From: a virus
Strand: one strand, 5' to 3'
IMG/VR virus record: IMGVR_UViG_3300009151_000043
Coordinates: 1 to 64,000 of that record
DNA: 64,000 nt
Shown here: positions 1-44,100 of the stretch, in pieces
How the letters are laid out: each line of letters begins with the position of its first letter
How positions within the stretch are numbered: the stretch's first letter is position 1
Made by a program: the position numbers and the translations under genes
Notes under the pieces: generated by a model
Databases searched by the model: none
The model's input: the letters and a program-made list of their open reading frames with translations, nothing else
Told to the model about the DNA's origin: nothing

Positions 1-595
1 ACAGACAACTGTCCATATAGCTTGAAGCTTCGCCTGGGCTAGTTGTCAACGCTTGATGATAAACAACACCCTTCCGAGGATGGTCTACTCCAAGCACGTC
101 AGTTATCTCACTGAGACTATCAGGATGGCTCAAGCTTCCGCAGGCCCATACCCTGGCTAGATCTAGATGTGTTCCCTCCCCCAGTGAAGCGGTGTGGAAC
201 ACGTCTTTGAAGAAGTTCATCTCACTGTATCGTGCAGCTCGCCTAGCTATAAAAGGGTACACAAACCGGCAGCCACGAAACGTGACTGTGCGTGCACCTT
301 CAATAGTTTTTAGCTTATTATACAGCCAGCGAAGTATAGTCTCCTCTACACAGGTAAGTGAAGTCTTTGTCTCTATCTTTCCAGTCTCTATATCTAGCAA
401 ACCTACCGCACATACGTATCCTGTAATTTCGCTATAGGCAGCATCTTCAAAATACTTATTTTTCTTTTTCTCTATATCCTCAGCAATCTTAACCGCATCT
501 TTGAGGTTTGCGGCGGCTCTGAATACAGGAGCTTTCAGCACCAACTCGGCTTTAGATAATGGTGCTGTCTCTATGTGTAATATGTATTGGTTCAT
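1..595 (-). CDS. PolB-related 3'-5' exonuclease-like protein with degenerate catalytic motifs (3' end runs off the window; not in the ORF track)
   Basis: Manual translation from ATG 595 (ATGA overlap with the upstream stop) is open to base 1: MNQYILHIETAP...ITGYVCAVG...EETILRWL...VTFRGCRFVYPFIARRA...HLDLARVW...SLSEITDVLGV. This matches the DEDD exonuclease layout (DIET / TFNGxxFDxPF / HxDL). Confidence 0.6.
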   Translation of the reverse strand, partial: MNQYILHIETAPLSKAELVLKAPVFRAAANLKDAVKIAEDIEKKKNKYFEDAAYSEITGYVCAVGLLDIETGKIETKTSLTCVEETILRWLYNKLKTIEGARTVTFRGCRFVYPFIARRAARYSEMNFFKDVFHTASLGEGTHLDLARVWACGSLSHPDSLSEITDVLGVDHPRKGVVYHQALTTSPGEASSYMDSCL

Positions 596-2697
596 ACTGT
601 TGTCAATGCATTGTCTACCAAGGCTGCGACCCCTTCAGCAGTGTTTTCTCGCTCTGGGTGATAATTGTGTGCATTTTCAGCGCCTGGTTGTCCTGTTGCG
701 CTTGCGAGCGTAGTGATGTTCTGTTGCATTACTCCGTCGTTTTTCAACGCAAGAAGTCTTGCTGCGATATCGTCATATCCTGCACCTGCGTAGTGCCGGT
801 CATTTACAATACAGCGATACTGCTTTGTTTCGAAATCGTACACTTTAGCAGTTTTAATAATTACCGCATACGTTCTGAGTGAGCCGTGGACTTTATAGGC
901 TTTTTCACCCATAAATTCAATTTGCTCAGCTTTCGTCAGCTTTACGGCTGTGGCGAGAAACTCTTTAGACTTCTCTACAGCCGCCTTCTTTGCTTCGTTG
1001 GCAGCAGACAATAGTTTAACAATATCTTCTTTAGTTAACAGTACCTGTTTGGTTTCTGTAGGCTTTCCCTCAGCATCCACACCTTTGACAGTAAACGTAG
1101 AGGCTTCAACAAGAAGTTTGGTCAACTCGTACTGACTCCACTCATATGACCTGTAGCCGAACGGACACGTCCAATCGCGCCTACGCATCCAACCGTTGTC
1201 TGTCTTTTTATTCAGTGTTTCTATACGCTTAACAAGTTTAGCCAGACTGACCTTGACTTTACGCTCTTTATCTATATGAATCTTTATGCATTTCTCTGCT
1301 TTATCAATACTGAACTGTAGCGCAGGCGCGTCCGGACCTGCTGTTTCATCGTTGTACTCGCGGTTTGTTATCGAGCTATGAATTTTTACTGGCAGTCCGT
1401 TAGCGATTACATCGTGCCACTTGATACTCATCCTACAAACGCTTTTCAGAAACAACTTATAGTCCTCCGCGTCGTGATAGCAAGAAGCTCTATGGATAGC
1501 TTTACTGATTTCTTCTCGATTAATCCTGACTTTGTTAAGATACCGTTGATATGTGTCAGAAACAGCAGGAGTGATGCTGATACCGTTCACACTGAAGGTA
1601 GGTAGCTCTTTTAATACCGCTGTGTCAACTTCCTCAGCTTCTGGTTGTGCGTTAGGCTCATCTAGATTTACAACCGCAACCAGAGCCTCGGGAGCGTTCT
1701 CTTTAACAAGCAGTCTTTCCACATGCTTCGCATACACATCCACGATAGTGTAGATATCAAACTCTAGGTTGAAGTTTAGACTTTTGAACAAAACATCCAG
1801 CAGATCTTCAGCTTCTAGCGATACCTGCGCGTAGGTGGCTGATGTTTTTGTCAAAACCACGTTATTAATAGTAGTTTTTTCTATTTCATCATTCATCAAT
1901 TTACTCACGACAAGAAGAGTTGTATTTTTCTTATAGTCGTCGTCGATGTGCTTGCTGAGAGTGTTATAGGCTGACTTCGTATCAGTATCCATTTTCTTGT
2001 GCATCTTCAAACGAAGAAGCTCGGCCTCGTAAACATTAATGAAGCAACCGTCACGCAGCATCTCAACAAGGCTTGGCTGCATGATACACATCATGAAGAT
2101 ATGTGCCGTGTTTACGTCATACTCATTAGCTACAACATAGTGTGTAGTGATTTCTCCTTTTTTATCTTTTTGTTCTATAGCTTTAAAATAGAACCCGGCA
2201 TCCAGGTAGTCATAGATAGGCTCGTCATTCCTAGCCATCAGAATGACGTGATTCATATGACGATTATCGTAATCTGTGATAATCCTATATGTGAAGTCTC
2301 CTTGCGTCGTTTCCGCAGGAGCATTTTTGATGACCTTTGGTCTGTACCCCGTACCGATACTTTCAGGCACAAGCTTCAAAGTCTTAAATAGCTTTGCCGT
2401 GTTGTGCTGGATATCGCTCAGTGTACGTTCCGGCTCATTACGTATTTTACACAGCTCGCTCCACCAGAATGGGGAATCTGTGAGCATGGTACTGTTCAAC
2501 GGAATTTGTTTAAACTTGGAAAAGCCATACAGGTCTTCCAAAGAAGAGAATCTGAGCTTGTGATAATTCGCAGTGTATACTGGCTGATATTGTGCGTCGT
2601 AGCCATAGCTTAGATCCATGTCGCCAGCTTCAGCAAACTTGAATAGCTGATTGATTTCTTTATTTAATTTTTTAAGTTCTGTGTAAGGAATATTCAT
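592..2697 (-). CDS. Large hypothetical protein (~701 aa) with C-terminal GxLRTY...CIV...D...LLALxND domain
   Basis: Long ORF. The track start at 2739 lies inside a terminator hairpin, so ATG 2697 (MNIPY) is preferred. The C-terminus resembles, from memory, the C-terminal domain of bacterial DUF4132 proteins. Confidence 0.75.
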   Translation of the reverse strand: MNIPYTELKKLNKEINQLFKFAEAGDMDLSYGYDAQYQPVYTANYHKLRFSSLEDLYGFSKFKQIPLNSTMLTDSPFWWSELCKIRNEPERTLSDIQHNTAKLFKTLKLVPESIGTGYRPKVIKNAPAETTQGDFTYRIITDYDNRHMNHVILMARNDEPIYDYLDAGFYFKAIEQKDKKGEITTHYVVANEYDVNTAHIFMMCIMQPSLVEMLRDGCFINVYEAELLRLKMHKKMDTDTKSAYNTLSKHIDDDYKKNTTLLVVSKLMNDEIEKTTINNVVLTKTSATYAQVSLEAEDLLDVLFKSLNFNLEFDIYTIVDVYAKHVERLLVKENAPEALVAVVNLDEPNAQPEAEEVDTAVLKELPTFSVNGISITPAVSDTYQRYLNKVRINREEISKAIHRASCYHDAEDYKLFLKSVCRMSIKWHDVIANGLPVKIHSSITNREYNDETAGPDAPALQFSIDKAEKCIKIHIDKERKVKVSLAKLVKRIETLNKKTDNGWMRRRDWTCPFGYRSYEWSQYELTKLLVEASTFTVKGVDAEGKPTETKQVLLTKEDIVKLLSAANEAKKAAVEKSKEFLATAVKLTKAEQIEFMGEKAYKVHGSLRTYAVIIKTAKVYDFETKQYRCIVNDRHYAGAGYDDIAARLLALKNDGVMQQNITTLASATGQPGAENAHNYHPERENTAEGVAALVDNALTTV

Positions 2698-2719
2698 TTT
2701 TAAATATATGTAGGTACGC

Positions 2720-2754
2720 AAAAAAGCCCCCTGGCACACTGTGTACCAGGGGGC
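2720..2754 (-). terminator. Rho-independent terminator downstream of the ubiquitin-like gene
   Basis: Minus strand GCCCCCTGG-TACACAGTGTG-CCAGGGGGC followed by TTTTTT. Confidence 0.85.
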
Positions 2755-2780
2755 ATGAACTGGGGCTGGAGAGGCTGCGC

Positions 2781-3098
2781 TTACTTCACACCGCCGACAA
2801 GAATACCGGTAAGAAGAACTGCAGGATCATCCATTGCCTGCAACTGTGCTTGCAGTTTCTGGATGTTGCTTTCTGTGCGATAGTCTGTGCCTTTGAACTC
2901 AAACTTTTCGCCGTTGATGAACACCCAGCGGGCGTTATTTTCAGCGTTTTCAAGAATGCACTCAGTTGCTGCTTCAAGGGTCAATCCTGCGCGGGTGTCG
3001 TGGCCCTTCGTGCTTGCGATGTCGATGTTGTATGTTTTCATGGTAGTTACTTCGTTGCTGACTTCTGCGTTAACTGCTGTGCTGTTGTTGTTTGACAT
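2781..3098 (-). CDS. Putative ThiS/MoaD/ubiquitin-like (beta-grasp) protein
   Basis: Strand-strand-helix pattern, WVFINGEKF (cf. ThiS VAVNGE), C-terminus VLLTGILVGG-VK. Confidence 0.6.
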   Translation of the reverse strand: MSNNNSTAVNAEVSNEVTTMKTYNIDIASTKGHDTRAGLTLEAATECILENAENNARWVFINGEKFEFKGTDYRTESNIQKLQAQLQAMDDPAVLLTGILVGGVK

Positions 3099-3123
3099 AA
3101 TATGATTTTTTGTTGTTACTGCA

Positions 3124-3152
3124 ATTATAACCGATTTTTAACCTACGGTCGA
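3124..3152 (-). promoter_or_regulatory. Putative sigma70-type promoter for the ubiquitin-like gene
   Basis: Minus strand TCGACC-17 nt-TATAAT, 25 nt upstream of ATG 3098, preceded by hairpin GGTTGTTC/GAACAGCC. Confidence 0.5.
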
Positions 3153-3183
3153 GGCTGTTCTGGGGGGAACAACCAAGACTTTA

Positions 3184-4016: not shown

Positions 4017-4763
4017 TTATCTGTGGATGGGAAACTGCACATGACGGATTTTTCCACTCTTTAAAGGACGATCAACGCAAACTCTGCACCTAGCGCAGGC
4101 TCCCTTATCCTTTAGTTTTTTAGTTTTACCAGAGACTTCAGGGCAGATCAGCACTGGCCTGTCCTTGGGTATGTCAGCTGGCAGAGTATCACCCATCCAG
4201 GCTAGCGCCACGTTAGGGTAATTCTTGTACTCTTCATATATGGCAAATACTTTATCTCTGTTCACTGGGTCGCAGCTCAGCATCAGTGTGAGGTTTTTAA
4301 GCTCAGCCAGTATAGGTACAGCGAACATGGCTCGTGTATACGCCCAGAAATGCACAGCTGGGTGTTTCTCTATGGCTTTAGCCCAAGCGGCTGTGTAGGT
4401 GAGGTTGAAGAACTCTCCTCCAGTATGTATCCTGAAGAAGGGTTCCTGTCCACCACCATTTAACAACCATTTATCTATACTGTTCTCTATAATGCAGAGC
4501 TGCTCCTCAAAGCTCTTACTCCAAACTAGTGAAGTATTATAGTCTTCGTTAGCTGCATAATTCTTGCGCAGCTTACGAAGATTAACATCGTAGCACTTAC
4601 CAACACAGCCGCCCTCTCCCTCTGTAGCCGCCACACACGTTCCTCCGTGTGCTGGCAAGCCAGAAGCTAGGCTGAATGTGTTCCCGTGAGCTTTTTTAAA
4701 CCGTACTTTGCTATTGTCTGTCAGCTTAAAGCTACGGTAATCGTCTATTGTTTCCATTCCCAT
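4017..4763 (-). CDS. GP88-family (radical-SAM-like) phage protein
   Basis: TFSL...TC...C...CY, FRIHTGGEF, FWAYTR and C-terminal CP...CARCRVC, typical of gene-product-88 proteins. Confidence 0.75.
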   Translation of the reverse strand: MGMETIDDYRSFKLTDNSKVRFKKAHGNTFSLASGLPAHGGTCVAATEGEGGCVGKCYDVNLRKLRKNYAANEDYNTSLVWSKSFEEQLCIIENSIDKWLLNGGGQEPFFRIHTGGEFFNLTYTAAWAKAIEKHPAVHFWAYTRAMFAVPILAELKNLTLMLSCDPVNRDKVFAIYEEYKNYPNVALAWMGDTLPADIPKDRPVLICPEVSGKTKKLKDKGACARCRVCVDRPLKSGKIRHVQFPIHR

Positions 4764-7450
4764 AAGTTCTTTTCAAAATTCCATGCAGTTTCTTTCGCAA
4801 ACACTTTTTCTTTACCCTTCCATCTATCCATGATCTCCAGCTCACAGCCTACATTATCGCCTGTAGCAAGTTTTGTTTGGTGGCAAAACACATCTTTTAA
4901 TACTTCCTGGATATAGTTGTCCTTGCACAGATCTTTGTGTACAGCCCAGTAGCCTGCATCATGCACGGTATTTACAGGATATATGTACTTCATCCAAAGA
5001 CCTTCTTTCTTTAGCCTGTTCTTGAGGTTCACTGACGCTTCCCACATGAACCAGGCCAATTCACTAGCCACAGGGAACGCAAGACTCTCGTTCATCCATC
5101 CGGCAAGAATACCGAAGTTGTCTGTAGCTTCATACTGGAGTATGAGCCCTCGCGCATTAGTGATCCTTTTATAATCTTGTACTTCATTCGTGCAACGATC
5201 TCTGTAGGCCATATATTTTGTGTACCTTCTCCAGGTATCCAAAGCATACTCAAGTGTCTTCAAACCCACATGCAGCCCGTTCTCAGCATAGATGTCAGCT
5301 TGAATAGGTACTGCAGCGAACTTTAAGCCTGCAGTATACGACACACGGAATGTGATACTTTTAGCGATAACGTACTTACTCACATCTTTTTTTGTGAGTG
5401 TATGGTCATTAAAGTATTCACGCATCTTGGTCTGATGGAAATTACCAGATCTGATGTCATGGATGAAGTTTTCATCCTGACTCAGAAAGGCCATAATTGC
5501 CAAGTCAGCTCCGGCAACGTCAAGCTCACACCAGTAGTAGTCAGGGTCACCAGGATAAAATATATTACGTATATTTTTAGGCAATTGCTCACTGTACTCT
5601 TTCTGCTCATCACTGTTGAGATTACTGTAACCAGGCACAAAGATGTCCGGTATATACGCCAACACCTTTGATGCAGGATTTTGAACATTAGGGCTGCTGC
5701 TGGCCCTAAAATTCTTCAAGCACTCAAAGAAACTAGCGTGTATCTTTCCATCGCCACAGATAGCTGACCAGTAGCTTTGTTTGAGAGGCTCTTCATCATC
5801 CTCACTTTCAATTTCACCGTCCATCAATACGCCTTTCCTGGACAGAAACTTGTTGGCAAATACACTTATCCTCCCAACGCTGAGTAGCAGGGTTATAGCT
5901 TTGTGTGTGGCGTTCAGCTTTTCAAGATTCTCTTCCGTCTCTTCCAGTCCTTTAGCCTGCAACTCCTCAAGCTGAAATTTTATAGTAGACAGACTTTTGC
6001 CGTTCGTGCTTGGCTCGTAGAGCTTTTTTGTTTCAGGCTTCTGCTTGTCGTACCATACTTTGCTTTTGGGGCTCTTCCCTGACTTTGTGTAGTATGCTGG
6101 CTGAACTTTGAGTGTGTCGAACAAAAGCTCTTTTTTCTGAAGCGAACTGTTAGGATTGAATTCATCTATACCGAACCTTTCTTTTAAGAATTCTGTAAGT
6201 TCCTTTTTTAGTTCATCATATTTTCTACTGTATTTGTCAGATATGTCTTCTAGTACAGCCTTGTCTATACCTATACCAGTGAGTTCCATATCTGTGAAAT
6301 ATGTAGTCAAAGGAAGATAAATATCATAATAAGCAGATTTTAGCTCTTCAGGGAACAGGTGCATCATACGTAAACAAGCTTCACGATGACTCACAGCGTC
6401 CCCAGCACAATAATCGTAGTATATTTCTGGCTCAAGAAATTTCATCTTCGCCATTTCAGCCTTAGCTAGCTTGTGCTCTTTCATCTTGCGATTAAGTGCC
6501 GTGTAGTATGGCCGATACTTGGTGAACATCTTGATACCTGTCTCCAAGCCTTTAGGTAGTCTAGAGTCAAAGAACGCCACAGCTTTCATACCGTCAAACG
6601 CCAGGGTCTCATCAGGTAGATCAAACCCTCTATGGCGCAAACGTAGATCGTCAGCTCGTATATTCCAGCCAAGCCTTTTAGCTTCTGGATGCTCGAGCAT
6701 GATTTTCATCGTGTCCAAGAGTTCTCTATTCTCGGTTGCGCCATCGTTGCTAATATTCAACACTATGGCTATGTCTTTTTCACAAGAGTACTGGAACTCA
6801 TACATTACCTCGTCATCGGTAAATTTACTACCGAACCACTCAGCATCATAACCTATGGTGAACATACCTTTGCGTACGTACCTTTCAAGAATACGCCTAT
6901 TCTCTGCAGGGTCGTCAATCACGAAGTATGTGTAGTCTTGGTATTTAAGATTATCGTCAAGCGACCTTTTGGCCAGTTCGAATATCTCTTTGAACTCTGG
7001 ACGCTTTGTAGGGTCCATCATAACAATCATGCCTGGAGCATAATTGGCTAGAATTTTCCCATAAGCATTTTCAGTAATCTCCCCAATATAGTCCCCCATT
7101 TTAATGTTGGACTTCATGACGCGCTTGAATGCCTCGGCACCCAGCGGCATGATTAGCTTAGGCTTGATGGCCTCTATCTCTTTATCAAGGCTTTCTCGCC
7201 ACTCTTCAATATCCTCAGCACTAGGTTTACTTTTTACACCTATGCCGTGTTTTACCGTAGCTGTAAAATGTACTTTCTCTAAGGGAATATCTGCAGCACT
7301 CAAAGCAGCCAAAACTTCAGCTGCCGCATACCCTCGCTTACCGAAAGCTTCAGCCTCCAAGTCGTCTTTGTTTGGGTGAGAGAAGACAATCAGTAGCTCT
7401 GGAGCAGTACCTTCTGTTATTGTAGTATCTATCGTTATTCTGTCTGACAT
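4745..7450 (-). CDS. polA: Family A DNA polymerase with N-terminal uracil-DNA-glycosylase-like domain and 3'-5' exonuclease (SPO1-type architecture)
   Basis: UDG4-like N-terminus (EIEAIKPKLIMPLGAEA). Exo motifs YDAE, WNIRAD, YCAGDA. Pol motifs RASSSPNVQN, motif A Asp (ELDVAG), AKSITF...Y, VHD. Confidence 0.88.
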   Translation of the reverse strand: MSDRITIDTTITEGTAPELLIVFSHPNKDDLEAEAFGKRGYAAAEVLAALSAADIPLEKVHFTATVKHGIGVKSKPSAEDIEEWRESLDKEIEAIKPKLIMPLGAEAFKRVMKSNIKMGDYIGEITENAYGKILANYAPGMIVMMDPTKRPEFKEIFELAKRSLDDNLKYQDYTYFVIDDPAENRRILERYVRKGMFTIGYDAEWFGSKFTDDEVMYEFQYSCEKDIAIVLNISNDGATENRELLDTMKIMLEHPEAKRLGWNIRADDLRLRHRGFDLPDETLAFDGMKAVAFFDSRLPKGLETGIKMFTKYRPYYTALNRKMKEHKLAKAEMAKMKFLEPEIYYDYCAGDAVSHREACLRMMHLFPEELKSAYYDIYLPLTTYFTDMELTGIGIDKAVLEDISDKYSRKYDELKKELTEFLKERFGIDEFNPNSSLQKKELLFDTLKVQPAYYTKSGKSPKSKVWYDKQKPETKKLYEPSTNGKSLSTIKFQLEELQAKGLEETEENLEKLNATHKAITLLLSVGRISVFANKFLSRKGVLMDGEIESEDDEEPLKQSYWSAICGDGKIHASFFECLKNFRASSSPNVQNPASKVLAYIPDIFVPGYSNLNSDEQKEYSEQLPKNIRNIFYPGDPDYYWCELDVAGADLAIMAFLSQDENFIHDIRSGNFHQTKMREYFNDHTLTKKDVSKYVIAKSITFRVSYTAGLKFAAVPIQADIYAENGLHVGLKTLEYALDTWRRYTKYMAYRDRCTNEVQDYKRITNARGLILQYEATDNFGILAGWMNESLAFPVASELAWFMWEASVNLKNRLKKEGLWMKYIYPVNTVHDAGYWAVHKDLCKDNYIQEVLKDVFCHQTKLATGDNVGCELEIMDRWKGKEKVFAKETAWNFEKNLWEWKQ

Positions 7451-8010
7451 CTTATACTTAAGGTTACCGTGTTATAGTTTTTCCTGAGCTTCTTTTTGGC
7501 TACGTTTATCATGAACCCCACATTACCGGGTGTGGTGCGAAGCTTCTTGGCTATCTCGATATAACTCATGTCGCAGAAATATCTTAGGTACATTACAGCT
7601 TTTAACTTAACCGGAAGCATACTCATAACCTCTCCCACAAGAGACTCAACCCTCCCAGCTTCGTCTTTTTCTACTAACAGCTCTAAGGGCGAGTTGTCGC
7701 ACTCGCACGCCAGAGCCAAAGCACCTGACGGCATATCGGCTTCGTCAACAAAGCTATAGGCAAAGCATTCACCGAATAACAATCTTTTATCTTTTTTTAT
7801 TATTTTAAAAGATATGTTCCTACTCACTGCAAACAGCCAAGGAGCAGGATCTTCGCCGGTTGCAGTATATTTCGTCATCAGCCTGACAAAAGTCTCCTGC
7901 ACCACTTCATGAGATCTATCCAAGTCTTTTAATATGCTGTAGACAAATTTTCTCAAACTTGCGTAATTTTTTTCATATGCCTCTTCTACTTCCTTGGTGG
8001 TGAGTTTCAT
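7435..8010 (-). CDS. RNA polymerase sigma factor, ECF-like sigma-70 family
   Basis: Region 2 EVVQETFVRL...PWLFAVSRN. Region 4 LPVKLKAVMYLRYFCDMSYIEIAKKL...GNV. Confidence 0.88.
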   Translation of the reverse strand: MKLTTKEVEEAYEKNYASLRKFVYSILKDLDRSHEVVQETFVRLMTKYTATGEDPAPWLFAVSRNISFKIIKKDKRLLFGECFAYSFVDEADMPSGALALACECDNSPLELLVEKDEAGRVESLVGEVMSMLPVKLKAVMYLRYFCDMSYIEIAKKLRTTPGNVGFMINVAKKKLRKNYNTVTLSIRCQTE

Positions 8011-9422
8011 TATACAGGGGAATGAAAGCCGGTGTTGGCGGCAGGCAACATGGCTGTTCTGGGGGGTATATTTGTGAAATTACCTTTCTGTCGCTGCTTC
8101 TTTTTATCCTTATCCTCTTCTTTGGCTCTGTCTTCAGCTGCCCTGTCTTGCTGCTCAAAGTTCATGAATTCAAGCTCTGCCAAATAATCGAATTGGAAAT
8201 TTTTGGCGTGCCGAGATTTCAATGAGAATATACTGACAATACTGTCCTGAGAGCTGTCTCTACCTATAGCTAGCACCATATCTGCAGGTTTTAATATTCC
8301 TTTAAATCCGCTGATTTCTGCATTGCTAAACTTCCTTGTCATCTTGCCACCTGCCTGGTGCAATAGCCACACACTGAACATGTGTTCACCACCTATAAGG
8401 TGGTTTGATAGATCATCTATCTCGAACGCTACTTTCGAGTACTTCTGCCAGTCAGCATCGTATTTATCGTTGGTTGTGAGATAGTCCATCTGGTCTATAT
8501 ACACCAAGTCAGGATGATAGCCTGTCTGTTCGTATAGTTTATCCAGATAGTTCTGTATGTACTTGCCAGTCACTGGAGAAGCGTCACGCAGGTCATGTAT
8601 CTTTAGGTTGTTCATGGCTTCCTTGTCTCTGGAAGACATGCTGCGCCAGGCTTCGCGCAGATCATGTTGAGCAAATGTATTACCCTTGTGCAAGTCTGTG
8701 TAAGGTATTCTAAAAATATTACTATACACGCGGTTGCATATGTTTTCAGCAGGCTCCTCAAGACTCAGATATAAGACTTTCCTAAACTGCTTGGCGTTCT
8801 GCACCGCGCTATATGCAGCCATGGCTGTTTTACCTGAACCACTATGCCCAAGTATCAAGCCAAACTCTTGATAGTTTAACCCTTTGGCGGCCATGTCTAT
8901 TGCAGGGAAGCCCGTCATCAAGCTCTCCTTGTGCTCTACCAAGATAAGCTTTTTGAACGGATCAAATTCTCTGATGTTCCCGACACTGTTTTTGAGCTCA
9001 ATATCCCCCAGCAGCTTATGGGCTTCGTTTACAAGCTGCTCAGGAGTATTCATGCCTCCTATTTTAATTGCCTGGTATCTCCTGAATTTAATGAAGTCTG
9101 CTAAATGCTTCGTTATATGGTCAGCGTTAAGAGGGCCATCATTATACACAAACTCCCAGAACTCTAGCGCTGACGCTGCAGACGCTCCTTCTATATCACG
9201 AATCTTTAACTCACCTTTCAATTTGGCTAGGCAAAGCTGAGGATTAACAGGAGCCACACCAATACTCAATGCCGTGGCTACAAAAGCATGGTATATGTTT
9301 ATCGCCCCGAAATCTCCAGGAACAATCCTTAAATCTATAGCCTTTTGCAGTGTATTTTTATCTCTGAACAGACACTTGATGGTCAGCTCAATATAGTCCG
9401 AGTCGTTGTATATATCATTCAT
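8010..9422 (-). CDS. dnaB: DnaB-like replicative helicase
   Basis: TGFPAID, Walker A GHSGSGKT, YLSLEE, Walker B VYIDQMD, ADMVLAI, KSR. Confidence 0.88.
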   Translation of the reverse strand: MNDIYNDSDYIELTIKCLFRDKNTLQKAIDLRIVPGDFGAINIYHAFVATALSIGVAPVNPQLCLAKLKGELKIRDIEGASAASALEFWEFVYNDGPLNADHITKHLADFIKFRRYQAIKIGGMNTPEQLVNEAHKLLGDIELKNSVGNIREFDPFKKLILVEHKESLMTGFPAIDMAAKGLNYQEFGLILGHSGSGKTAMAAYSAVQNAKQFRKVLYLSLEEPAENICNRVYSNIFRIPYTDLHKGNTFAQHDLREAWRSMSSRDKEAMNNLKIHDLRDASPVTGKYIQNYLDKLYEQTGYHPDLVYIDQMDYLTTNDKYDADWQKYSKVAFEIDDLSNHLIGGEHMFSVWLLHQAGGKMTRKFSNAEISGFKGILKPADMVLAIGRDSSQDSIVSIFSLKSRHAKNFQFDYLAELEFMNFEQQDRAAEDRAKEEDKDKKKQRQKGNFTNIPPRTAMLPAANTGFHSPV

Positions 9423-38197: not shown

Positions 38198-41100
38198 CTA
38201 CACGCTAAAATAGCCTACTAAGTTTTGTACACCCATTACAAGCCCTTTTGAAAGGTAGAAATCTGTATAGTATTGTAGAGAGCTGCTCGCAGTTACTCCG
38301 TAAACAGTCATAGATGTGTTGGGTCCCCAAACACTATAGTAGTCGTTGAAATTCTCTGTGTCTGTCTTGTCTACAAAGCTGATAGGGGTGTACTGGTTGA
38401 GTGCGGCGCCGTCCCACGTCCAGAATTTAGGTCTGTCGCCAGGTAAATCAAGTTTGTAGAGCGAAGAGGCCCCGTACAAATAGTCATACTTATCGTATGA
38501 CATGTCAGGACCAGGTATATTTATGCGCTTCGTGAGCGCTGGTCCCTCGTCACAGGTGGCAACCATTATAAACTCAGGTGACGCCGGATCATTCCATAAC
38601 CAAATGTACTCGTTACGACAACGTATATTGGTTGGGCGGCGCAGCAATTGGACAATACCTACTTTGTTAATATCCGAATTAACGTTGTGTATGGATAGTA
38701 CGTGGTCGTCATGGTCCGGGACTGACTGTTTGGTTGGTCCCCAGGAACACCAAGGGTCAAGTGGATACTTATCACAACCACCCAGAACCATTGTGTAATT
38801 GGGGTCCATCATGTTCCCTCTTGAAGCTTGCATATAACTATAACGACCTATCTTATAAGTATAAAGAGGTACGTTATACCTCGCGTACGGACTACTCAGA
38901 TTAATGCCGCTTGCAATTGATGAGTGATACGTTAACAATCCGTAAGTGGTAGGCCCTGACAAGTAACCCACGGAGTACGATGTGGCTGTAGCGAGAGCTA
39001 GTCTAAGCTCAATACTTATGCTTGAATAATTATCGGCATTTGCTATCGGGATGGTATAGCTGTCTACTGCAGTAGCTGTGACAACATACTTTTTAGCGTT
39101 GTCTGTAGCATTTCTGTCCCATTCGGGGCTGCTGGGCGATCTAAACTCATTTCTGTAGTTTTCTATTGCTGGCCACGGTACAAACGACAGGTCAGCTTCA
39201 GCTGAAACAGAGTGTGTGCCTGCTTTATCCCAAAAGTGCAACCTATAATAATACTTGGAGTTATAAGAGTCCCAGTCGGGGCTTTCTTTGAAAAAATTCA
39301 TGTTGAGCCGGGACAGCTGGAATTTAATACTTGCTCTGTCATCCCCTAGGCCTAGTGCTCGCACAAATGGCGGTGCAGGTATTGGCGGAGCAAGCAATTT
39401 GATGGCGCTAGTCGCAGTTATGGTTCTTCCAACATATGTAATCTGTCCGTTATATATCTGCCCTCCATACATCGTCCTTATCTCCTTGGATGGAAGAATG
39501 CCTGGAGTACGGTGCGCCTTATAAGATGCTGCGTATACCTCACGGTAAGAACGATTACTTAATACTGTCTCAGGTTGTAATTGCGCTTTGGTGAACACGC
39601 CTGTAGATATTTCCCCAAAAAGATATAGTGTTATATCCTCCCCAGACTCATAAACTCCAGGCAATACGTAATTGTTGAGGTTAGTTGCAACTACCGTTGT
39701 AAAACTACCTGCTGGTGCCTTAGCGTTTACTATTTTTACTTTTGTACCTGCAGGGTCATTCACAGCCAGCCATATAGCGGTATCCTCGTAATATGTAATA
39801 TGTAAGTTTACAGTGATTGTCATTTTACACCCTTGCGGATGGTAAATAAACGATGGGCTGCCTGCTGATGTAACACCTGCACTTACGGCAACGATAGTGG
39901 CCTCGCAAAGCGGTATTGCGTTAGGGTTTTTGATATAAGCTGCCTGAGAATTTCCTACTGAGCTGGTCGTGTACACCTTATATATGCTCGGGAACGCATA
40001 ACCTAGAGTTGAGTCTACCTCTAGCCTGTTAGGCTGCAGATAATCGTAATCGCTTCTGTCTGCGTATTTTCTCACAAGGTAAGTCGTGGTTACCGGCGGA
40101 GACACGCTATTATCGGTTTTCGTCGCAGTGTCTATCGAAAAAGTGTAATCCGAATACACGAAGGTATAGCTGTAGCGCAATTCATAAGTATCGGTGTTTA
40201 AAAGCGAAGGCACATACGTGGAGGGTCCGGTGCCCCCAGTTATATAGTTTATTTGTATACTGCAACCGGCGTCAATCGTTAGAGCTCCCTTTGACCCAGG
40301 CAAAGAGACATACCCCTCTATCACATGGCTGTAGTCTTCGCCTTCGCCTATAGCGTAACCTGTCTTACCCACCACTTCTCCCTTTTTCCATACTCCCCAT
40401 CCAGTATCTTTGGCTCCATTGTCGAGGCCTGGAATTATGCTTATGTGTGCGGGGCTATTTGTGAAACTGTCGAACGCCGGATTATTGGTGAATGATAGGC
40501 TTGGTGCGCTGGGAGGAAGAGGTATCCTTACGTTGTTAAATGATGGTGTATGTGTGAAGTCGCCTCCGCTAGCAAGCAAGTCTATTTTATGATTAGTGTG
40601 ATCAGAAGTAGGCAAATTAATCACACCAACTAGCTTAAATAACTCTGCTCCTGGAGGATTGGCTCCTACGCTGGCCGGTTTATTTACAGTAGGCAGATTA
40701 CTGACGAGAGTTATCGAGCTGTCTTGAGTTAACGGTAAAAATGGTCCGTTATCTATGCTGTAGCTTCTAGATGAAATTTGCGTAATCAGCGCGGCTTCCT
40801 CGTTATATGAAAAATATTTGTAAGAGTAGGCATACACACCAAGCTTGCCAGGTGCGACAGGAATTATACGGTAGCTCTCTATTGCAAGAGAGCGTAGAGC
40901 TAAAGGACTCTTTGGTGATGCTGCAGACTTGCCTACTGAGTTATAGGCTTGAATACTCACTCCAGCTGTTTTTGAATTATTATATAGCCCGTGGGACCCT
41001 GCGTCATCGAAGGGTAAGACATATACTGTTTGATTTGGGTCAGTTATATTTACATCGAAACCAGGGAAGTTAATAGTGTACCCGGTAGCTCCCCGTACTT

Positions 41101-44100
41101 TGCTCCAGGATACAGTTAGTATACTTACAAAACTTCCTGGCAAACCGTACCATTTCCACTCATCAAAAACGTTTACTGGTCCTGGGTTACCTGGAGCGTA
41201 TGTGAGTGTCGGGGCTGTTGGTTGGGCTGGGATTACTGATAGCATTATGCTTTTAACGCCAGACGATAATGACCCTGTAGTATTTTCTGCAAAAACCTGT
41301 ATGTCGTAGTTTCCAGAGTAGAATGGTTCTCCGTTATTGTCTTTTATAACACAGGATAAAGAGGTAACAGGACTACCCTCGTACGAGGACGGTATCATGA
41401 ATCTGTTCGGGGCGCTGTCGCTGGGTGTTATGTAGACACCATATGGCTTCGCTATGGTCTGTATAGAGACTGCGCTAGCATGATTTGCGAGACTTTGCGG
41501 AGGGCCGCCATTAATTGTGTAGTAGTGTAGTGCTGGGGTGTTTCCGCCAGCGGAACTAGGAGGAACCAAGCGTAAGACTACCCCTATAAACCCCCATACA
41601 TTATTCTGCCAGTCAATCCACCCATCTAGCTGGTACACAGACCCTCTCCACCAGGTGGTGTCAAAAAATTGTGTAGCTAAATTTCCGTAGGGCCTTACTG
41701 CATTAGATATTACTGAGCGCCCTGAAGTGTGGTCAATAAATGGGTACTCGGCTGTGGGGTTACCTGCTGTAGCTAGCTGTACAGTCACCACGTAATCTTC
41801 GCTCTCGGATAGCTGTGTAGAGTTATCATAAACCGGGAAAGCTGGATTGACGCTGTATATAAACGCTCGTGTAGTGATGGGTGCGCCAGAATACGTAGCG
41901 TCAGCCACAACAGCGCTCGGACCAAACCCGTGAGCGTCTCCGTCGTAACTAAATGGGTACTCTGAATTGCTGTATGTGCCAGGGGCGTAGCTAGCGCGAT
42001 AAACTTTATAATTGATTGCGAGATTGCCTGCCCCTCCATCACTCCCAGGGCCACTAAGTGTGAGGCATAGTGCGCCATGTCCTGCAGGAGTAGCGCATCT
42101 AGCTATTATGGGTACGGTGGATGGAGGGTTAACTACATATTTAAATTTCCTTAAAGGTAGCCCGTGATCTGGTAATGGTCTGGAATATTTTGGGTCATTG
42201 AGATTAAATGCGTATGTCCAGTCTCCCCAGCCATTTAAGCTATTTTCAGCTCTGCAATAAGTCTGTAGGTTAGAACCTGCAGGGGGTAGCGCTGCCGTGA
42301 AATCCAAATATTTATCGTGTCCTCCTGCCGCAGGAGGTATTACGCTGCTAGCAGGAAAGGTTTGCACATACTCATCAAATGTTTGTGAGGAGTAATTTAC
42401 CAGCTTGACAGCATAATTGATTACTGAGGATCCTCCTGAAGAGAGGGCGGTCCCTATAGTTCCAGGTTCAAATGGGATGCGGATGCCGTCACTGCCTACA
42501 GAAATCGGTAGTGTTTGTGCGGATAGTTGCGGCGGAACAGGCTTACTGTTGGCTGTTATGGCTGCGGCGGATGCTGTGGCTGTAGGTCCGGACCCAGAAA
42601 GATTGGTAGCTCTGGCTTTTATGGCGTAGGTTTTCCCTGCCACTAGTGAACCAGAAGCAGGAAATTTAAAGCTTACATGTTTTGCAGTATACTCACCTGC
42701 CTGCAAACTTGTAAGGAATACGTAGCCCTGCTCAATAAATATGTTATCTTCAGTCAGCCAACCAGTATTAAAATCTTCAAAACTGAATGCTATTGCAGAG
42801 TCATCACTAGAGTTGTAGGTTATATCGACTTGCAGAGCCCCTGGTAGCGGTGTGAGTAAGAGTGTTGGTGCTCCAGGTAGCGGTTCTTTGGGTGTTGCAT
42901 ATAGGGTTGGACCTACTGAGCTTTGACCATACTTATTGGTCATGTAAACATTCACAGAATAGTTTATGGTGTTATTCCAAAGTGGATCGCTAGTGTAATT
43001 GATGTCGAATAACCCATCAACATGTAAAAGGTCGTCAGGTACTCTTATACGGTTTGCAGCTATGGCTGAAGGTTTCACAGGTCGGGGCCCCCAGTCGTCG
43101 ACTTCTACATAATAATTAAGTACAGGAATCAGAGAATCTGTGGGATTTGGAGCTATACACAAATCAAAGTTATGGTCACCTTCCGCGCAGACCCTGTATA
43201 CTGGAGGCTGAGGTGGTGCGTGCATCTCTACAGTAATAGCCTTTGGTGTGGCTGGACCATCCCCAGCTGCTGTACTTGCTCTAAATTTAAGCAGAATCAC
43301 CCCTAGCGGTAACCCGCTAACGGTGAAGGTCCGCTGTGTGCTTTGGGCCACGTAGGCTCCGCCGTTAATAGACATCTTGTATGTTACTCCCACTCCTGTT
43401 GGGTGAGATGCTGGGGGAGCGACTGTAACAGTTATCGTTCCTGCCCCAGTGACCTCTGCTGTCACACTAGGTAGTGACGTCGGTAGGGTGTCCTGTGCCC
43501 TTACCACTAAAGCTAGCGGCTTCCCTTTACCTTCAGCGCATTCTGCCACAATGTCTATAGGGTAGTCCACAGCTTCAGCTAGGTTGATTAACACAACTGG
43601 TGCTGTGGCGGAAATAATTCTTGTGTATGTGTCTCCTCCGTTCCTGGTGTAATAATACCCTGTTACTGGCGAACTTCTGGATGTAGCATCGCGGTTAAAA
43701 GAAATCGTTACCTTCTTAATCCCGCGTAATATAGATATAAGTGATGGGGCACCTGGGAGCTCCTTAGCAGTAAATGTCAGGCTTTCGGAGGCGGGGCTCA
43801 CAAACCCATACTCGTTCACAGCTTTTAGTTGAATTGTGTACTGCTCACCTATAGTGAGCGCGTAAAGATAGGTACCTATTCTGAAATGCATTAATGGGTT
43901 ACCAGCAAGCAAGGCACCTATAAAAGTGTTCACATAGTTGATACTCTCTCCTTCGAAGACGCTCGTTATACCTACCACATCGTTGCGTACAGAAACCCAG
44001 TCATCAGATATGGGGGGATTGTACGGGTTGGTACTGGTCAGTAGCATTTCAAAGTCTATTAAACGTCCTCCTCCGTCGTTCAGAGGTTTATGTAGCTGTA

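What the first reader, a model, noticed from the sequence alone, without database searches (positions are those of the whole stretch)
2720..3152. Phage ubiquitin/ThiS-like gene ending LVGG-VK with its own promoter and terminator
Seen: a 105-aa ORF with a beta-beta-alpha-beta pattern, WVFINGE, and a hydrophobic last strand ending in GG plus two residues (VK). It sits between a TCGACC-17-TATAAT promoter and a strong terminator, so it looks like a separately and highly expressed unit in a replication arm. Known: ThiS/MoaD/Ubl proteins are activated at a C-terminal Gly, and pro-forms need a protease (e.g. JAB) to expose it; bacterial Ubl conjugation is used in antiphage defence. Inference: this may be the modifier of a phage-encoded protein conjugation system, or a decoy for host E1/E2/DUB defence enzymes. 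No E1, canonical E2 or JAB gene is visible in this window.
Basis: partly seen in the sequence, partly recalled or inferred. Interest (0 to 1): 0.8.

Follow-up and report, generated by a model that had tools for sequence, protein, structure and literature searches.

The report
Phage-encoded ubiquitin-like tag with partners
This small gene of an uncultured freshwater giant phage encodes a ubiquitin-shaped protein with an invariant Gly-Gly end that, in all related phages, sits with its own activating enzyme, trimming protease and a probable carrier protein, so the virus appears to run its own protein-tagging system, something so far studied in bacteria only as an anti-phage defence.

Summary
Window 2781-3098 (-) is a real 105-aa gene with a promoter-like site upstream and a strong terminator downstream. 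The terminator recurs in all 12 related loci.

The predicted fold is beta-grasp, with modest scores. Gly-Gly is invariant in about 70 homologs. What follows it varies: nothing, tails of 1-32 residues, a second tag repeat, or another domain.

The "missing" partners exist. In every related phage contig long enough to show them, the gene is linked to three others: a ~700-aa protein (window 592-2697), a JAB/JAMM protease and a minimal ThiF-type E1. The window's contig ends about 40 nt before the expected JAB gene.

The ~700-aa protein has a C-terminal domain that weakly but repeatedly matches E2/UEV/RWD folds. It carries a cysteine that is invariant in 140 diverse representatives.

No sulfur-transfer enzymes were found in the complete relatives. 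None of 185,579 species genomes scanned with short conserved patterns, and none of the deposited phage genomes searched, held the tag or the big protein.

Best reading: a precursor modifier of a phage-encoded Ubl conjugation cascade, trimmed by JAB, activated by E1 and passed to an E2-like cysteine. Targets are unknown.

Earlier notes of this scan report the same four-gene module on other DNA. I found no paper describing it.

The parts
2781..3098 (-). Ubl precursor gene, 105 aa (P0001). It has a disordered Asn-rich N-terminus (residues 1-19) and a beta-grasp core (20-103). The invariant Gly102-Gly103 codons are at 2790-2795, followed by a 2-residue tail (VK) and the stop codon.
3124..3152 (-). 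Promoter-like site TCGACC-17-TATAAT, about 25 nt upstream of the first ATG. It is kept in 5 of the 13 closest loci.
3153..3167 (-). Conserved upstream element CCCCCCAGAACAGCC. CCCAGAAC is kept upstream of the tag gene in 10 of the 13 closest loci. The same 15-mer recurs before the sigma-factor gene at 8050-8064 (-).
2716..2754 (-). Intrinsic terminator: a 13-bp GC-rich stem, 3-nt loop and T-run between the tag gene and the ~700-aa gene. An equivalent hairpin plus T-run is present in all 12 related loci.
592..2697 (-). The ~700-aa partner protein (P0049, 701 aa; true start is the ATG at 2697). It always neighbours the tag gene. The N-terminal ~550 residues have no recognised fold.
688..1044 (-). 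C-terminal domain of the ~700-aa protein (residues 552-670): helix, 4-strand meander, Cys loop, helix. It gives weak E2/UEV/RWD fold matches and a weak DUF7737 match. The invariant Cys629 codon is at 811-813.
2..595 (-). RNase H-fold exonuclease-like gene, cut by the contig end about 14 codons before its expected stop. In relatives L005, L006 and L010 the same gene lies between the ~700-aa gene and JAB-E1, so JAB and E1 are expected just beyond window base 1.

Best explanation
The ORF encodes the precursor of a ubiquitin-like modifier that belongs to a phage-encoded four-gene conjugation module: the tag, a ~700-aa protein with an E2-like C-terminal cysteine domain, a JAB/JAMM metalloprotease, and a minimal ThiF-type E1.

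Proposed cycle:
1. The tag gene is transcribed as its own short unit, bounded by a promoter and a terminator. This would give more tag than enzymes.
2. The JAB protease removes whatever follows Gly-Gly (here Val-Lys) and probably also reverses conjugates.
3. The E1 adenylates the exposed Gly103, perhaps forming a thioester on its one conserved cysteine (Cys156 in the relatives' numbering).
4. The tag passes to Cys629 of the ~700-aa protein. Its large N-terminal part would select the target, like an E2/E3 hybrid.
5. The tag ends up on lysines of unknown phage or host proteins.

Shown here: gene reality, predicted beta-grasp fold, invariant Gly-Gly with variable or absent extensions, strict linkage of the four genes, an intact JAMM motif, E1 nucleotide-binding motifs, and the invariant cysteine.

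Inferred: every chemical step, the E2 role, and the targets. For this particular phage the JAB and E1 genes are also inferred, because its contig stops just short of where they lie in relatives.
For: Fold:
- The AF2 model has mean pLDDT 74.5 (core about 85) and topology b-b-a-b-b-a-b.
- The 50 listed Foldseek PDB rows are almost all Ubl proteins, as are most viral-library hits.
- VIA Z is 4.2-5.1, and model residues 101-103 align to the C-terminal residues of Fubi, ISG15, SUMO1 and ubiquitin.

Gly-Gly:
- Invariant in 48 of 48 homologs, with unconserved tails of 1-32 aa.
- Across both clades only Gly-His (32-33) and Gly-Gly (102-103) are invariant.
- In clade B most tags end exactly in ...LVGG.
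- L051 carries a tandem di-tag, and L050 and L053 carry tag-domain fusions, all with GG at the junction.

Linkage:
- 12 of 12 tag-anchored loci have the tag, the ~700-aa gene and JAB. E1 is present in 11, and the twelfth is cut by its contig end.
- Of the 49 E1-anchored loci with E1 identity of 32% or more, 46 show all four genes in one of two orders, and 3 are cut by contig ends.
- The ~700-aa, JAB and E1 genes abut or overlap.

Enzymes:
- JAB has the EEEGG and H-x-H-x7-S-x2-D motifs and scores 28-33 bits against Prok-JAB, above the cut-off.
- E1 scores 60-72 bits against ThiF and has GAGGIG, DDD..V and CVD motifs. Its Cys156 is kept between clades.

E2-like domain:
- About 13 of 50 VIA rows for residues 568-670 are E2, UEV, RWD, the Cap2 E2 domain or BubCD (Z 3.5-4.4).
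- The cysteine is 100% conserved in 140 representatives that are 50% identical or less, and it is invariant in a 61-sequence full-length alignment.

Terminator: conserved in 13 of 13 loci.

Sulfur pathway: no rhodanese or cysteine desulfurase in the window's record or in 4 relatives, 2 of them complete.
Against: - No biochemical data exist.
- All fold matches are weak: Z of 5.1 or less for the tag and 4.4 or less for the E2-like domain. The Cys loop (residues 621-630) and the helices after residue 641 of the ~700-aa model have pLDDT of only 50-62.
- No sequence profile links the tag to ThiS, MoaD or ubiquitin, or the big protein to UQ_con or any PDB chain.
- There is no HPN motif before the cysteine.
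- The E1 has His or Tyr where E1s have the Arg of NLxRQ.
- By sequence the E1 is closest to sulfur-carrier ThiF and PRTRC ThiF models, though below their cut-offs.
- E1 and JAB are not in this window or its record.
- Expression could not be checked: one lake metatranscriptome gave only three small contigs, all on the polymerase gene.
Confidence: 0.68

Rival explanations
1. The tag is a sulfur carrier of the ThiS/MoaD/TtuB type. JAB exposes Gly-Gly, E1 adenylates it, and host sulfur donors turn it into a thiocarboxylate. That sulfur is then used to thiolate a nucleotide, tRNA or DNA base, or a cofactor, during replication. The ~700-aa protein would be the sulfur-using enzyme rather than an E2.
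For: - The E1 is minimal (198 aa) and scores best against ThiF and PRTRC-ThiF models.
- The C-terminal pattern D-x-x-V-L-L-T-G-x-L-V-G-G resembles ThiS/MoaD ends (my own knowledge). Iyer et al. 2006 describe ThiS/MoaD + JAB + E1 clusters used for sulfur assimilation.
- MoaD is among the fold matches.
- The module sits among DNA-metabolism genes.
- No E2 is detectable by sequence.
Against: - No rhodanese, cysteine desulfurase or other recognisable sulfur-transfer gene was found in two complete and two partial relatives.
- No ThiS/MoaD profile match.
- The partner's invariant-Cys domain matches E2/UEV/RWD folds, not a known sulfurtransferase.
- Tandem di-tag and tag-fusion precursors are typical of conjugated modifiers, though ThiS/MoaD fusions also exist.
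- Urm1, SAMP and TtuB do both jobs, so the two readings do not exclude each other.
Confidence: 0.15
2. Conjugation runs without an E2, as with archaeal SAMPs, Thermus TtuB or Urm1. E1 alone activates the tag. The ~700-aa protein is the main substrate or an adaptor, and its conserved cysteine serves another purpose such as metal binding, redox chemistry or structure.
For: - The E2-like fold matches are weak (Z 3.5-4.4), and the model is least confident around the cysteine.
- There is no HPN motif, no UQ_con or other sequence link, and nothing from the protein atlas.
- E2-less Ubl systems are established in archaea and Thermus (papers listed).
Against: - The cysteine is invariant across 140 diverse representatives.
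- It sits in the loop between a 4-strand meander and a helix, about 13 residues before that helix, as in UBC folds.
- E2, UEV and RWD chains fill about a quarter of the VIA rows although they are a small part of the PDB.
- The gene order tag, big protein, JAB, E1 parallels the component set of Bil operons.
Confidence: 0.12
3. The tag is a stand-alone decoy or inhibitor. It would soak up host Ubl-based defence enzymes such as Bil or type II CBASS E1/E2/DUB, without being conjugated by phage enzymes.
For: - The tag has its own promoter and terminator, which suggests high expression.
- Host Ubl conjugation is a known anti-phage defence.
Against: - The tag is never found without its own E1, JAB and partner protein.
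- In clade B it lies inside the enzyme operon.
- Precursor tails, di-tags and fusions require a dedicated protease.
- There is no sequence similarity to Bil or CBASS components beyond generic JAB and E1 hits.
Confidence: 0.05

Closest known systems
Bil systems (BilABCD) of bacteria: Ubl, E2, JAB deubiquitinase, E1 (Hor et al. preprint 10.1101/2023.09.04.556158; Chambers et al. PMC10557695)
   Same: It has the same four kinds of component: a small beta-grasp tag with a C-terminal Gly, an E1 of the ThiF superfamily, a JAB/JAMM peptidase, and a Cys-bearing E2-type carrier (here only predicted). A bacterial Ubl from an E1-E2-Ubl complex (8tyz_B) is among the fold matches (Z 4.3).
   Different: - It is encoded by the phage, not the host.
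- It sits in the replication/transcription module, not in a defence island.
- The tag, E1 and carrier have no detectable sequence membership in the defence families. PADLOC gives only generic CBASS JAB and E1-E2 hits.
- The E1 is only 198 aa.
- The presumed E2 is the tail of a ~700-aa protein.
- The target and biological role are unknown.
Type II CBASS Cap2 (E2-E1 fusion) and Cap3 (JAB)
   Same: The JAB is most like Cap3-type JABs (NCBIfam Cap3 E 0.006; PADLOC JAB models down to 9e-6). The Cap2 E2 domain (7to3_A residues 9-153) appears among the fold matches of the partner's C-terminal domain.
   Different: There is no CD-NTase, no E2-E1 fusion, and a separate small Ubl is the thing conjugated. 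All matches are far below the family cut-offs.
ThiS/MoaD-ThiF/MoeB sulfur-carrier pairs with JAMM processing (ThiS/MoaD + JAB + E1 clusters of Iyer et al. 2006, PMC1779556)
   Same: It shares the Gly-Gly end, extra residues after GG that a JAB must remove, and a minimal ThiF-like adenylating enzyme.
   Different: There is no ThiS/MoaD profile match and no sulfur donor or acceptor genes in the phage genomes. The extra invariant-Cys E2-like partner has no counterpart in those pathways.
Lambda/T1 tail-assembly Ubl (TAPI) with JAB-NlpC/P60 TAPK (Iyer et al. 2006, PMC1779556)
   Same: It is a phage-encoded beta-grasp Ubl with a conserved C-terminal Gly, paired with a JAB peptidase.
   Different: The lambda system has no E1 and lies among tail genes. 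This module has an E1 and lies among replication genes.
PRTRC cassette (ParB-related, ThiF-related) of plasmids and ICEs
   Same: The E1's best curated-model hit is PRTRC_ThiF (50 bits), and both are carried by mobile elements.
   Different: The score is far below the cut-off (144.75 bits), and no other PRTRC protein model matched the tag, partner or JAB.
Bub (6E/DUF6527) operons (Ye et al., PMC11601596)
   Same: It is a diverged Ubl-E1-E2-peptidase set, and a BubCD complex chain (9eav_D) is among the weak fold matches of the partner's C-terminal domain.
   Different: Bub works through Ser/Tyr oxyesters and lacks catalytic cysteines, whereas this module keeps invariant cysteines. Bub uses a Ser-His protease (BubE), whereas this module has a JAMM protease.

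Membership tests
Beta-grasp ubiquitin-like modifiers (Ub/ThiS/MoaD superfamily, functional sense) | Beta-grasp fold (b-b-a-b-b-(a)-b) | tested here: met
   The AF2 topology fits. The 50 listed Foldseek PDB rows are almost all Ubls at weak E-values. VIA gives Z 4.2-5.1, rmsd about 3 A over 60-72 residues, to PB1, UBL, Fubi, ISG15, SUMO and MoaD. Scores are modest and rest on a predicted model only.
Beta-grasp ubiquitin-like modifiers (Ub/ThiS/MoaD superfamily, functional sense) | Conserved C-terminal Gly(-Gly) at the end of the last strand, terminal or exposed by processing | tested here: met
   GG is invariant in 48 of 48 close homologs and in the 25-sequence cross-clade alignment. It is terminal in most clade-B members. 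What follows it is variable or absent.
Beta-grasp ubiquitin-like modifiers (Ub/ThiS/MoaD superfamily, functional sense) | Cognate E1-type adenylating enzyme | tested here: met
   ThiF scores above the cut-off in 5 of 5 related records and lies next to the tag in 11 of 12 tag-anchored loci. For the window's own phage this is not testable, because the contig ends first.
Beta-grasp ubiquitin-like modifiers (Ub/ThiS/MoaD superfamily, functional sense) | Sequence-profile membership (Pfam ubiquitin, ThiS, Urm1 and similar) | tested here: not met
   No such Pfam, NCBIfam, PHROG or PDB-sequence hit, either for single sequences or for profiles.
Beta-grasp ubiquitin-like modifiers (Ub/ThiS/MoaD superfamily, functional sense) | Covalent attachment to targets or thiocarboxylate formation | not testable with these tools
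   This needs biochemistry.
Bil (BilABCD) anti-phage system | Four components: Ubl, E2, JAB and E1 in one operon | tested here: inconclusive
   The tag, JAB and E1 are clear. The E2 is only a weak structural prediction.
Bil (BilABCD) anti-phage system | Host-encoded defence system that tags a phage tail protein | tested here: not met
   The module lies on phage contigs of up to 204 kb, among replication genes. It was not found in 185,579 species genomes by pattern scan.
Bil (BilABCD) anti-phage system | Sequence membership in defence-system models | tested here: inconclusive
   PADLOC gives only generic CBASS JAB and E1-E2 hits. I did not verify whether that release holds Bil models.
ThiS/MoaD sulfur-carrier pathway | Linked sulfur donor or acceptor enzymes (rhodanese, cysteine desulfurase, ThiG/MoaE-type user) | tested here: not met
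   Rhodanese and Aminotran_5 are absent from 5 records, including 2 complete genomes, while the controls gave positives. Host enzymes could still supply them.
E2/UBC fold carriers (for the C-terminal domain of the adjacent ~700-aa protein) | UBC/UEV/RWD-type fold: helix, 4-strand meander, active-site loop, helix | tested here: inconclusive
   The secondary structure fits. About 13 of 50 VIA rows are E2, UEV, RWD, Cap2 or BubCD, at Z 3.5-4.4. Foldseek on the whole model found nothing.
E2/UBC fold carriers (for the C-terminal domain of the adjacent ~700-aa protein) | Invariant catalytic cysteine in the loop before helix 2 | tested here: met
   Cys629 is 100% conserved in 140 representatives and in the 61-sequence alignment A6.
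E2/UBC fold carriers (for the C-terminal domain of the adjacent ~700-aa protein) | HPN motif and UQ_con profile match | tested here: not met
   The sequence around the cysteine is KVYDYETKQYRCIVND, with no HPN. UQ_con found nothing, but its controls were also silent.
PRTRC cassette | PRTRC_ThiF above the curated cut-off, plus the other PRTRC proteins | tested here: not met
   50.4 bits against a cut-off of 144.75, and no other PRTRC model hit.
JAMM/MPN+ metalloproteases (partner in relatives) | Glu plus the H-x-H-x7-S-x2-D zinc site | tested here: met
   EEEGG and HTHPSFSPxPSxLD are invariant in 8 of 8 sequences.

The most novel reading that the evidence does not exclude
Giant phages of freshwater bacteria run their own complete ubiquitin-like conjugation cascade: a new tag family, a minimal E1, a JAMM protease, and a new ~700-aa E2/E3-hybrid whose carrier domain is related to DUF7737. 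They would use it offensively during early or middle infection, for example to tag and redirect or disarm host proteins, or to regulate their own replication and transcription machinery. That would be the bacterial-virus counterpart of ubiquitin hijacking by eukaryotic viruses. As a corollary, the DUF7737 domain, which from my recollection sits at the end of bacterial DUF4132 proteins, would be an unrecognised E2-like fold.
Probability: 0.45. Interest if true: 0.85.

Novelty: new variant of a known kind. Interest (0 to 1): 0.76.

Why it matters
In bacteria, ubiquitin-like conjugation has been characterised as host immunity against phages (Bil, type II CBASS, probably Bub). A self-contained cascade carried by the phages themselves would reverse the roles. 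It recurs all-or-none in at least two gene orders across dozens of uncultured giant-phage contigs, and the pattern-based scans found it in no cellular genome.

If confirmed, it would add a post-translational takeover tool to phage biology. It offers a very small E1 (198 aa) and a sequence-orphan tag family for mechanistic and biotechnological study. It also gives a concrete, testable function to a large orphan protein family: 267 representatives at the 50% identity level.

It is also a practical reminder that an "absent partner" can be an artefact of a contig end.

Tried and rejected
- **Sequence searches with the tag.** Pfam, PHROGs, NCBIfam, PADLOC and PDB-sequence searches, with single sequences and with profiles A1 and A8, gave only chance-level hits.
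- **Deposited phage genomes.** tblastn of the tag and of two ~700-aa proteins against 50,697 deposited phage records gave no match.
- **Extending the contig past window base 1.** Exact 31-mer scans of viral and metagenome contigs found nothing.
- **Cellular counterparts.** Pattern scans of 185,579 species genomes with the partner's C-terminal domain and with the tag found none. These scans rely on short conserved peptides, so distant relatives could be missed.
- **Fold of the whole ~700-aa protein.** Foldseek gave no meaningful match. Profile searches against PDB sequences found nothing. The protein atlas returned nothing.
- **Expression.** The only RNA run offered, a lake-water metatranscriptome, gave three short contigs on the polymerase gene and none on the tag. 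That says nothing about tag expression.
- **Double-glycine leader peptide of a RiPP or bacteriocin (NHLP/Nif11-like).** Rejected: many family members end exactly at GG or have tails of 1-2 residues, so there is no core peptide. The module also contains no C39 peptidase or modification enzyme.
- **Cultured Flavobacterium phage FpV4.** It has a distant ThiF plus a weak JAB-like neighbour, but no detectable tag or ~700-aa homolog, so it is not a usable model for this module.
- **Other.** A single distant representative (P0201) had no viral-contig relatives.
Full report
**1. The observation**

The ORF is at window 2781-3098 on the minus strand. It encodes 105 residues ending LLTGILVGG-VK.

A sigma-70-like site, TCGACC-17-TATAAT, lies at 3152-3124. 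A 13-bp GC-rich hairpin with a T-run lies at 2754-2726. The terminator stretch folds at -33.1 kcal/mol, z = -3.7 against shuffles.

One promoter-like and one terminator-like hit in 1.1 kb is what shuffled sequence gives. The weight therefore comes from conservation:
- A hairpin plus T-run follows the stop codon in the window and in all 12 related loci, with different stem sequences.
- TCGAC-N17/18-TAnAAT is kept in 5 of the 13 closest loci.
- An upstream CCCAGAAC element is kept in 10 of the 13.

The first ATG lies about 25 nt after the -10 box, so the 105-aa form is the likely product. Residues 1-19 are Asn-rich, variable in length among homologs, and modelled as disordered.

**2. Fold**

AlphaFold2 on a 48-sequence alignment gave mean pLDDT 74.5, about 85 in the core. 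The topology is strand-strand-helix-strand-strand-helix-strand.
- The 50 listed Foldseek PDB rows are almost all ubiquitin, SUMO, ISG15, FAT10 or other Ubl domains, each weak (E 0.02-0.1, TM 0.36-0.48).
- The viral library gave mostly viral ubiquitins and some uncharacterised phage proteins.
- VIA-align against 48,161 representative chains gave Z 5.1 to a PB1 domain and Z 3.7-4.8 to the Ddi1 UBL, Fubi, ISG15, SUMO1, a bacterial E1-E2-Ubl complex tag (8tyz_B) and MoaD.
- A second look at Foldseek's top 1000 chains gave Z 4.2-4.8 to Ubls and to protein G/L B1 domains.

In these alignments model residues 101-103 fall on the last residues of Fubi, ISG15, SUMO1 and ubiquitin. The fold class is beta-grasp, on modest scores and a predicted model.

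No sequence profile places the protein in ThiS, MoaD, ubiquitin or any other family.

**3. The Gly-Gly end**

In 48 of 48 close homologs GG is invariant within L-L-T-G-x-L-V-G-G. It is followed by 1 to 32 unconserved residues, and the commonest tail is 2 residues.

Wider sampling found a second clade in which the 74-88-aa tag mostly ends exactly at ...LTNALVGG.

Across both clades the only invariant positions are Gly32-His33, in the first hairpin, and Gly102-Gly103.

One locus encodes a head-to-tail di-tag with GG at each repeat end (L051). Two encode a tag fused after GG to a further 75-155 residues (L050, L053).

This is the pattern of modifier precursors that a peptidase must open at GG. 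It rules out a double-glycine leader peptide.

**4. The partners**

The window's record is a 95,418-nt linear IMG/VR fragment, 49% complete by CheckV's estimate, and it begins at window base 1. It holds no ThiF or Prok-JAB match.

Related records do. ThiF is above the Pfam cut-off in 5 of 5, and Prok-JAB in 4 of 4. Two of these genomes are complete, at 198 and 204 kb.

With HMMs built from the session's alignments:
- 12 of 12 tag-anchored loci carry the tag, the ~700-aa gene and JAB.
- E1 is present in 11. The twelfth contig ends 360 nt after JAB.

The gene order is PolA/UDG, GP88, a variable gene, the tag, the ~700-aa gene, then in some an RNase H-fold exonuclease gene, then JAB, E1, a 350-aa gene and RecA.

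The window has the exonuclease version. Its copy (2-595, minus strand) is 58% identical to that of L005 and is cut about 14 codons short by the contig end. JAB and E1 are therefore expected within a few dozen bases beyond base 1. I could not extend the contig.

Anchoring on the E1 instead gave 62 viral loci.
- Of the 49 with E1 identity of 32% or more, 46 show all four genes; 3 are cut by contig ends.
- Two gene orders occur: tag-partner-(exo)-JAB-E1, as in the window, or partner-tag-JAB-E1.
- Three loci at 30% identity have a shorter partner-like gene and no detected tag.
- The most distant E1s (26-31%) follow larger JAMM-motif proteins, without a detectable tag or partner.

**5. The enzymes in relatives**

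The JAB (~145 aa) keeps EEEGG and H-T-H-P-x5-P-S-x2-D, the full JAMM zinc site.

The E1 is only ~198 aa.
- It has GAGGIGS, D-D-D-x-V and C/A-V-D motifs, and aligns to the ATP-binding part of UBA2, UBA3 and ThiF.
- Of its cysteines only Cys156 (E-x-G-G/S-C) is kept between clades.
- The Arg of the usual NLxRQ motif is His or Tyr.
- Its best curated-model hits are PRTRC-ThiF and ThiF, both far below cut-off.

**6. The neighbouring ~700-aa protein (window 592-2697)**

Close homologs occur only in this phage group.

The AlphaFold2 model has pLDDT 82. It shows a C-terminal unit: a long helix (556-588), four strands (591-621), a loop with Cys629, and helices from residue 642.
- Foldseek on the whole model found nothing.
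- VIA-align placed residues ~568-670 on E2S, UBE2F, UBE2E1, Ubc9, UbcH10, Ube2W, Ubc8, three UEV domains, the GCN2 RWD domain, the E2 domain of Cap2, and a BubCD complex chain. That is about 13 of 50 rows, at Z 3.5-4.4.
- The same stretch weakly matches Pfam DUF7737 in 31 of 38 members.

A profile of this domain found 267 representatives among 1.84 billion proteins. Most of the 150 listed are 600-790-aa proteins, apart from shorter fragments, and nearly all carry the domain at their C-terminus.
- In 140 of them the cysteine is 100% conserved, together with Tyr610, Asp654 and Gly605.
- It remains invariant in a 61-sequence full-length alignment with 17-50% identity.

There is no HPN motif and no sequence link to known E2s. 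Model confidence drops to 50-62 around and after the cysteine. I therefore rate the E2 assignment as probable, not established. A sibling first-reader note on this window had proposed the same role for this cysteine motif.

**7. Sulfur carrier or conjugation?**

No rhodanese or cysteine desulfurase was found in the window's record or in four relatives, while the control genomes gave positives.

Together with the E2-like partner and the poly-tag and fusion precursors, this favours protein conjugation. A dual role, as in Urm1, SAMP or TtuB, cannot be excluded.

**8. Distribution and literature**

The tag and the partner have no match in 50,697 deposited phage genomes. Pattern-based scans found neither in 185,579 prokaryotic species genomes.

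Cultured Flavobacterium psychrophilum phages (FpV4 group) have a distant minimal ThiF, annotated as thiamine biosynthesis, behind a protein with a weak JAB match. This pair also lies among replication genes, but without a detectable tag or partner.

Full-text searches found the host systems Bil, CBASS and Bub, the lambda TAPI/TAPK tail pair, and E1 homologs in Asgard-archaeal viruses. They found no description of a bacteriophage-encoded tag-E1-JAB-E2-like module.

Earlier AI notes of this scan describe the same four-gene module on other DNA, including the 198-kb relative. I consulted them after my own analysis, and they agree with it.

**9. Verdict**

Its main interpretation, a modifier of a phage-encoded conjugation system, is supported.

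The separate promoter and terminator are real and conserved in this clade. They are clade-specific: in the other clade the tag sits inside the enzyme operon.

The chemistry, the E2 role and the targets remain to be shown.

Noticed in passing
L051:1727-2350 (+); L050:1644-2375 (+); L053:1922-2407 (+): In related phages the tag gene encodes a tandem di-tag, with two repeats each ending ...TGDL[VA]GG. In two others it encodes a tag followed after GG by a 75-155-residue extension. These resemble polyubiquitin and ubiquitin-fusion precursors.
   Followed up: partly
window 3153-3167 (-) and 8050-8064 (-): The same 15-mer, CCCCCCAGAACAGCC, lies just upstream of the tag promoter and just upstream of the phage sigma-factor gene (7435-8010). 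CCCAGAAC is kept upstream of the tag gene in 10 of the 13 closest loci. It may be a shared regulatory site or part of a phage promoter class.
   Followed up: partly
L022 (Flavobacterium phage FpV4, NC_041872.1) 4686-6618: Cultured F. psychrophilum phages carry a distant minimal ThiF, annotated 'thiamine biosynthesis protein'. Directly before it lies a 423-aa protein with a weak Prok-JAB match. The pair sits between the primase/UDG and exonuclease/helicase genes. It may be a distant cousin of the module.
   Followed up: partly
window 4745-7450 (-): This is a family A DNA polymerase fused to an N-terminal uracil-DNA-glycosylase-superfamily domain (Pfam UDG 1.4e-08). It is 74-82% identical across relatives. 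A sibling note flags unusual polymerase motifs.
   Followed up: no
window 4017-4763 (-): This 248-aa protein of the GP88 family (PF17338, 9e-26; phrog_1392) has several Cys motifs. It is always found between the polymerase gene and the tag region. Its function is unknown.
   Followed up: no
L005:14251-15342 (+) and equivalents: A conserved ~350-aa protein with no family match (starts MAIIKPS.KFEGSELNL) always follows the E1 gene and precedes RecA in the window-type clade. It is absent from that position in the other clade.
   Followed up: no
window 38198-50386 (-): A single 4062-aa ORF lies in the structural region of this giant phage.
   Followed up: no
window 4671-6159: A lake-water metatranscriptome (run X1) holds three short contigs, at least 99% identical, on the polymerase gene only. 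This is a weak hint of habitat and is not evidence about the tag gene.
   Followed up: yes
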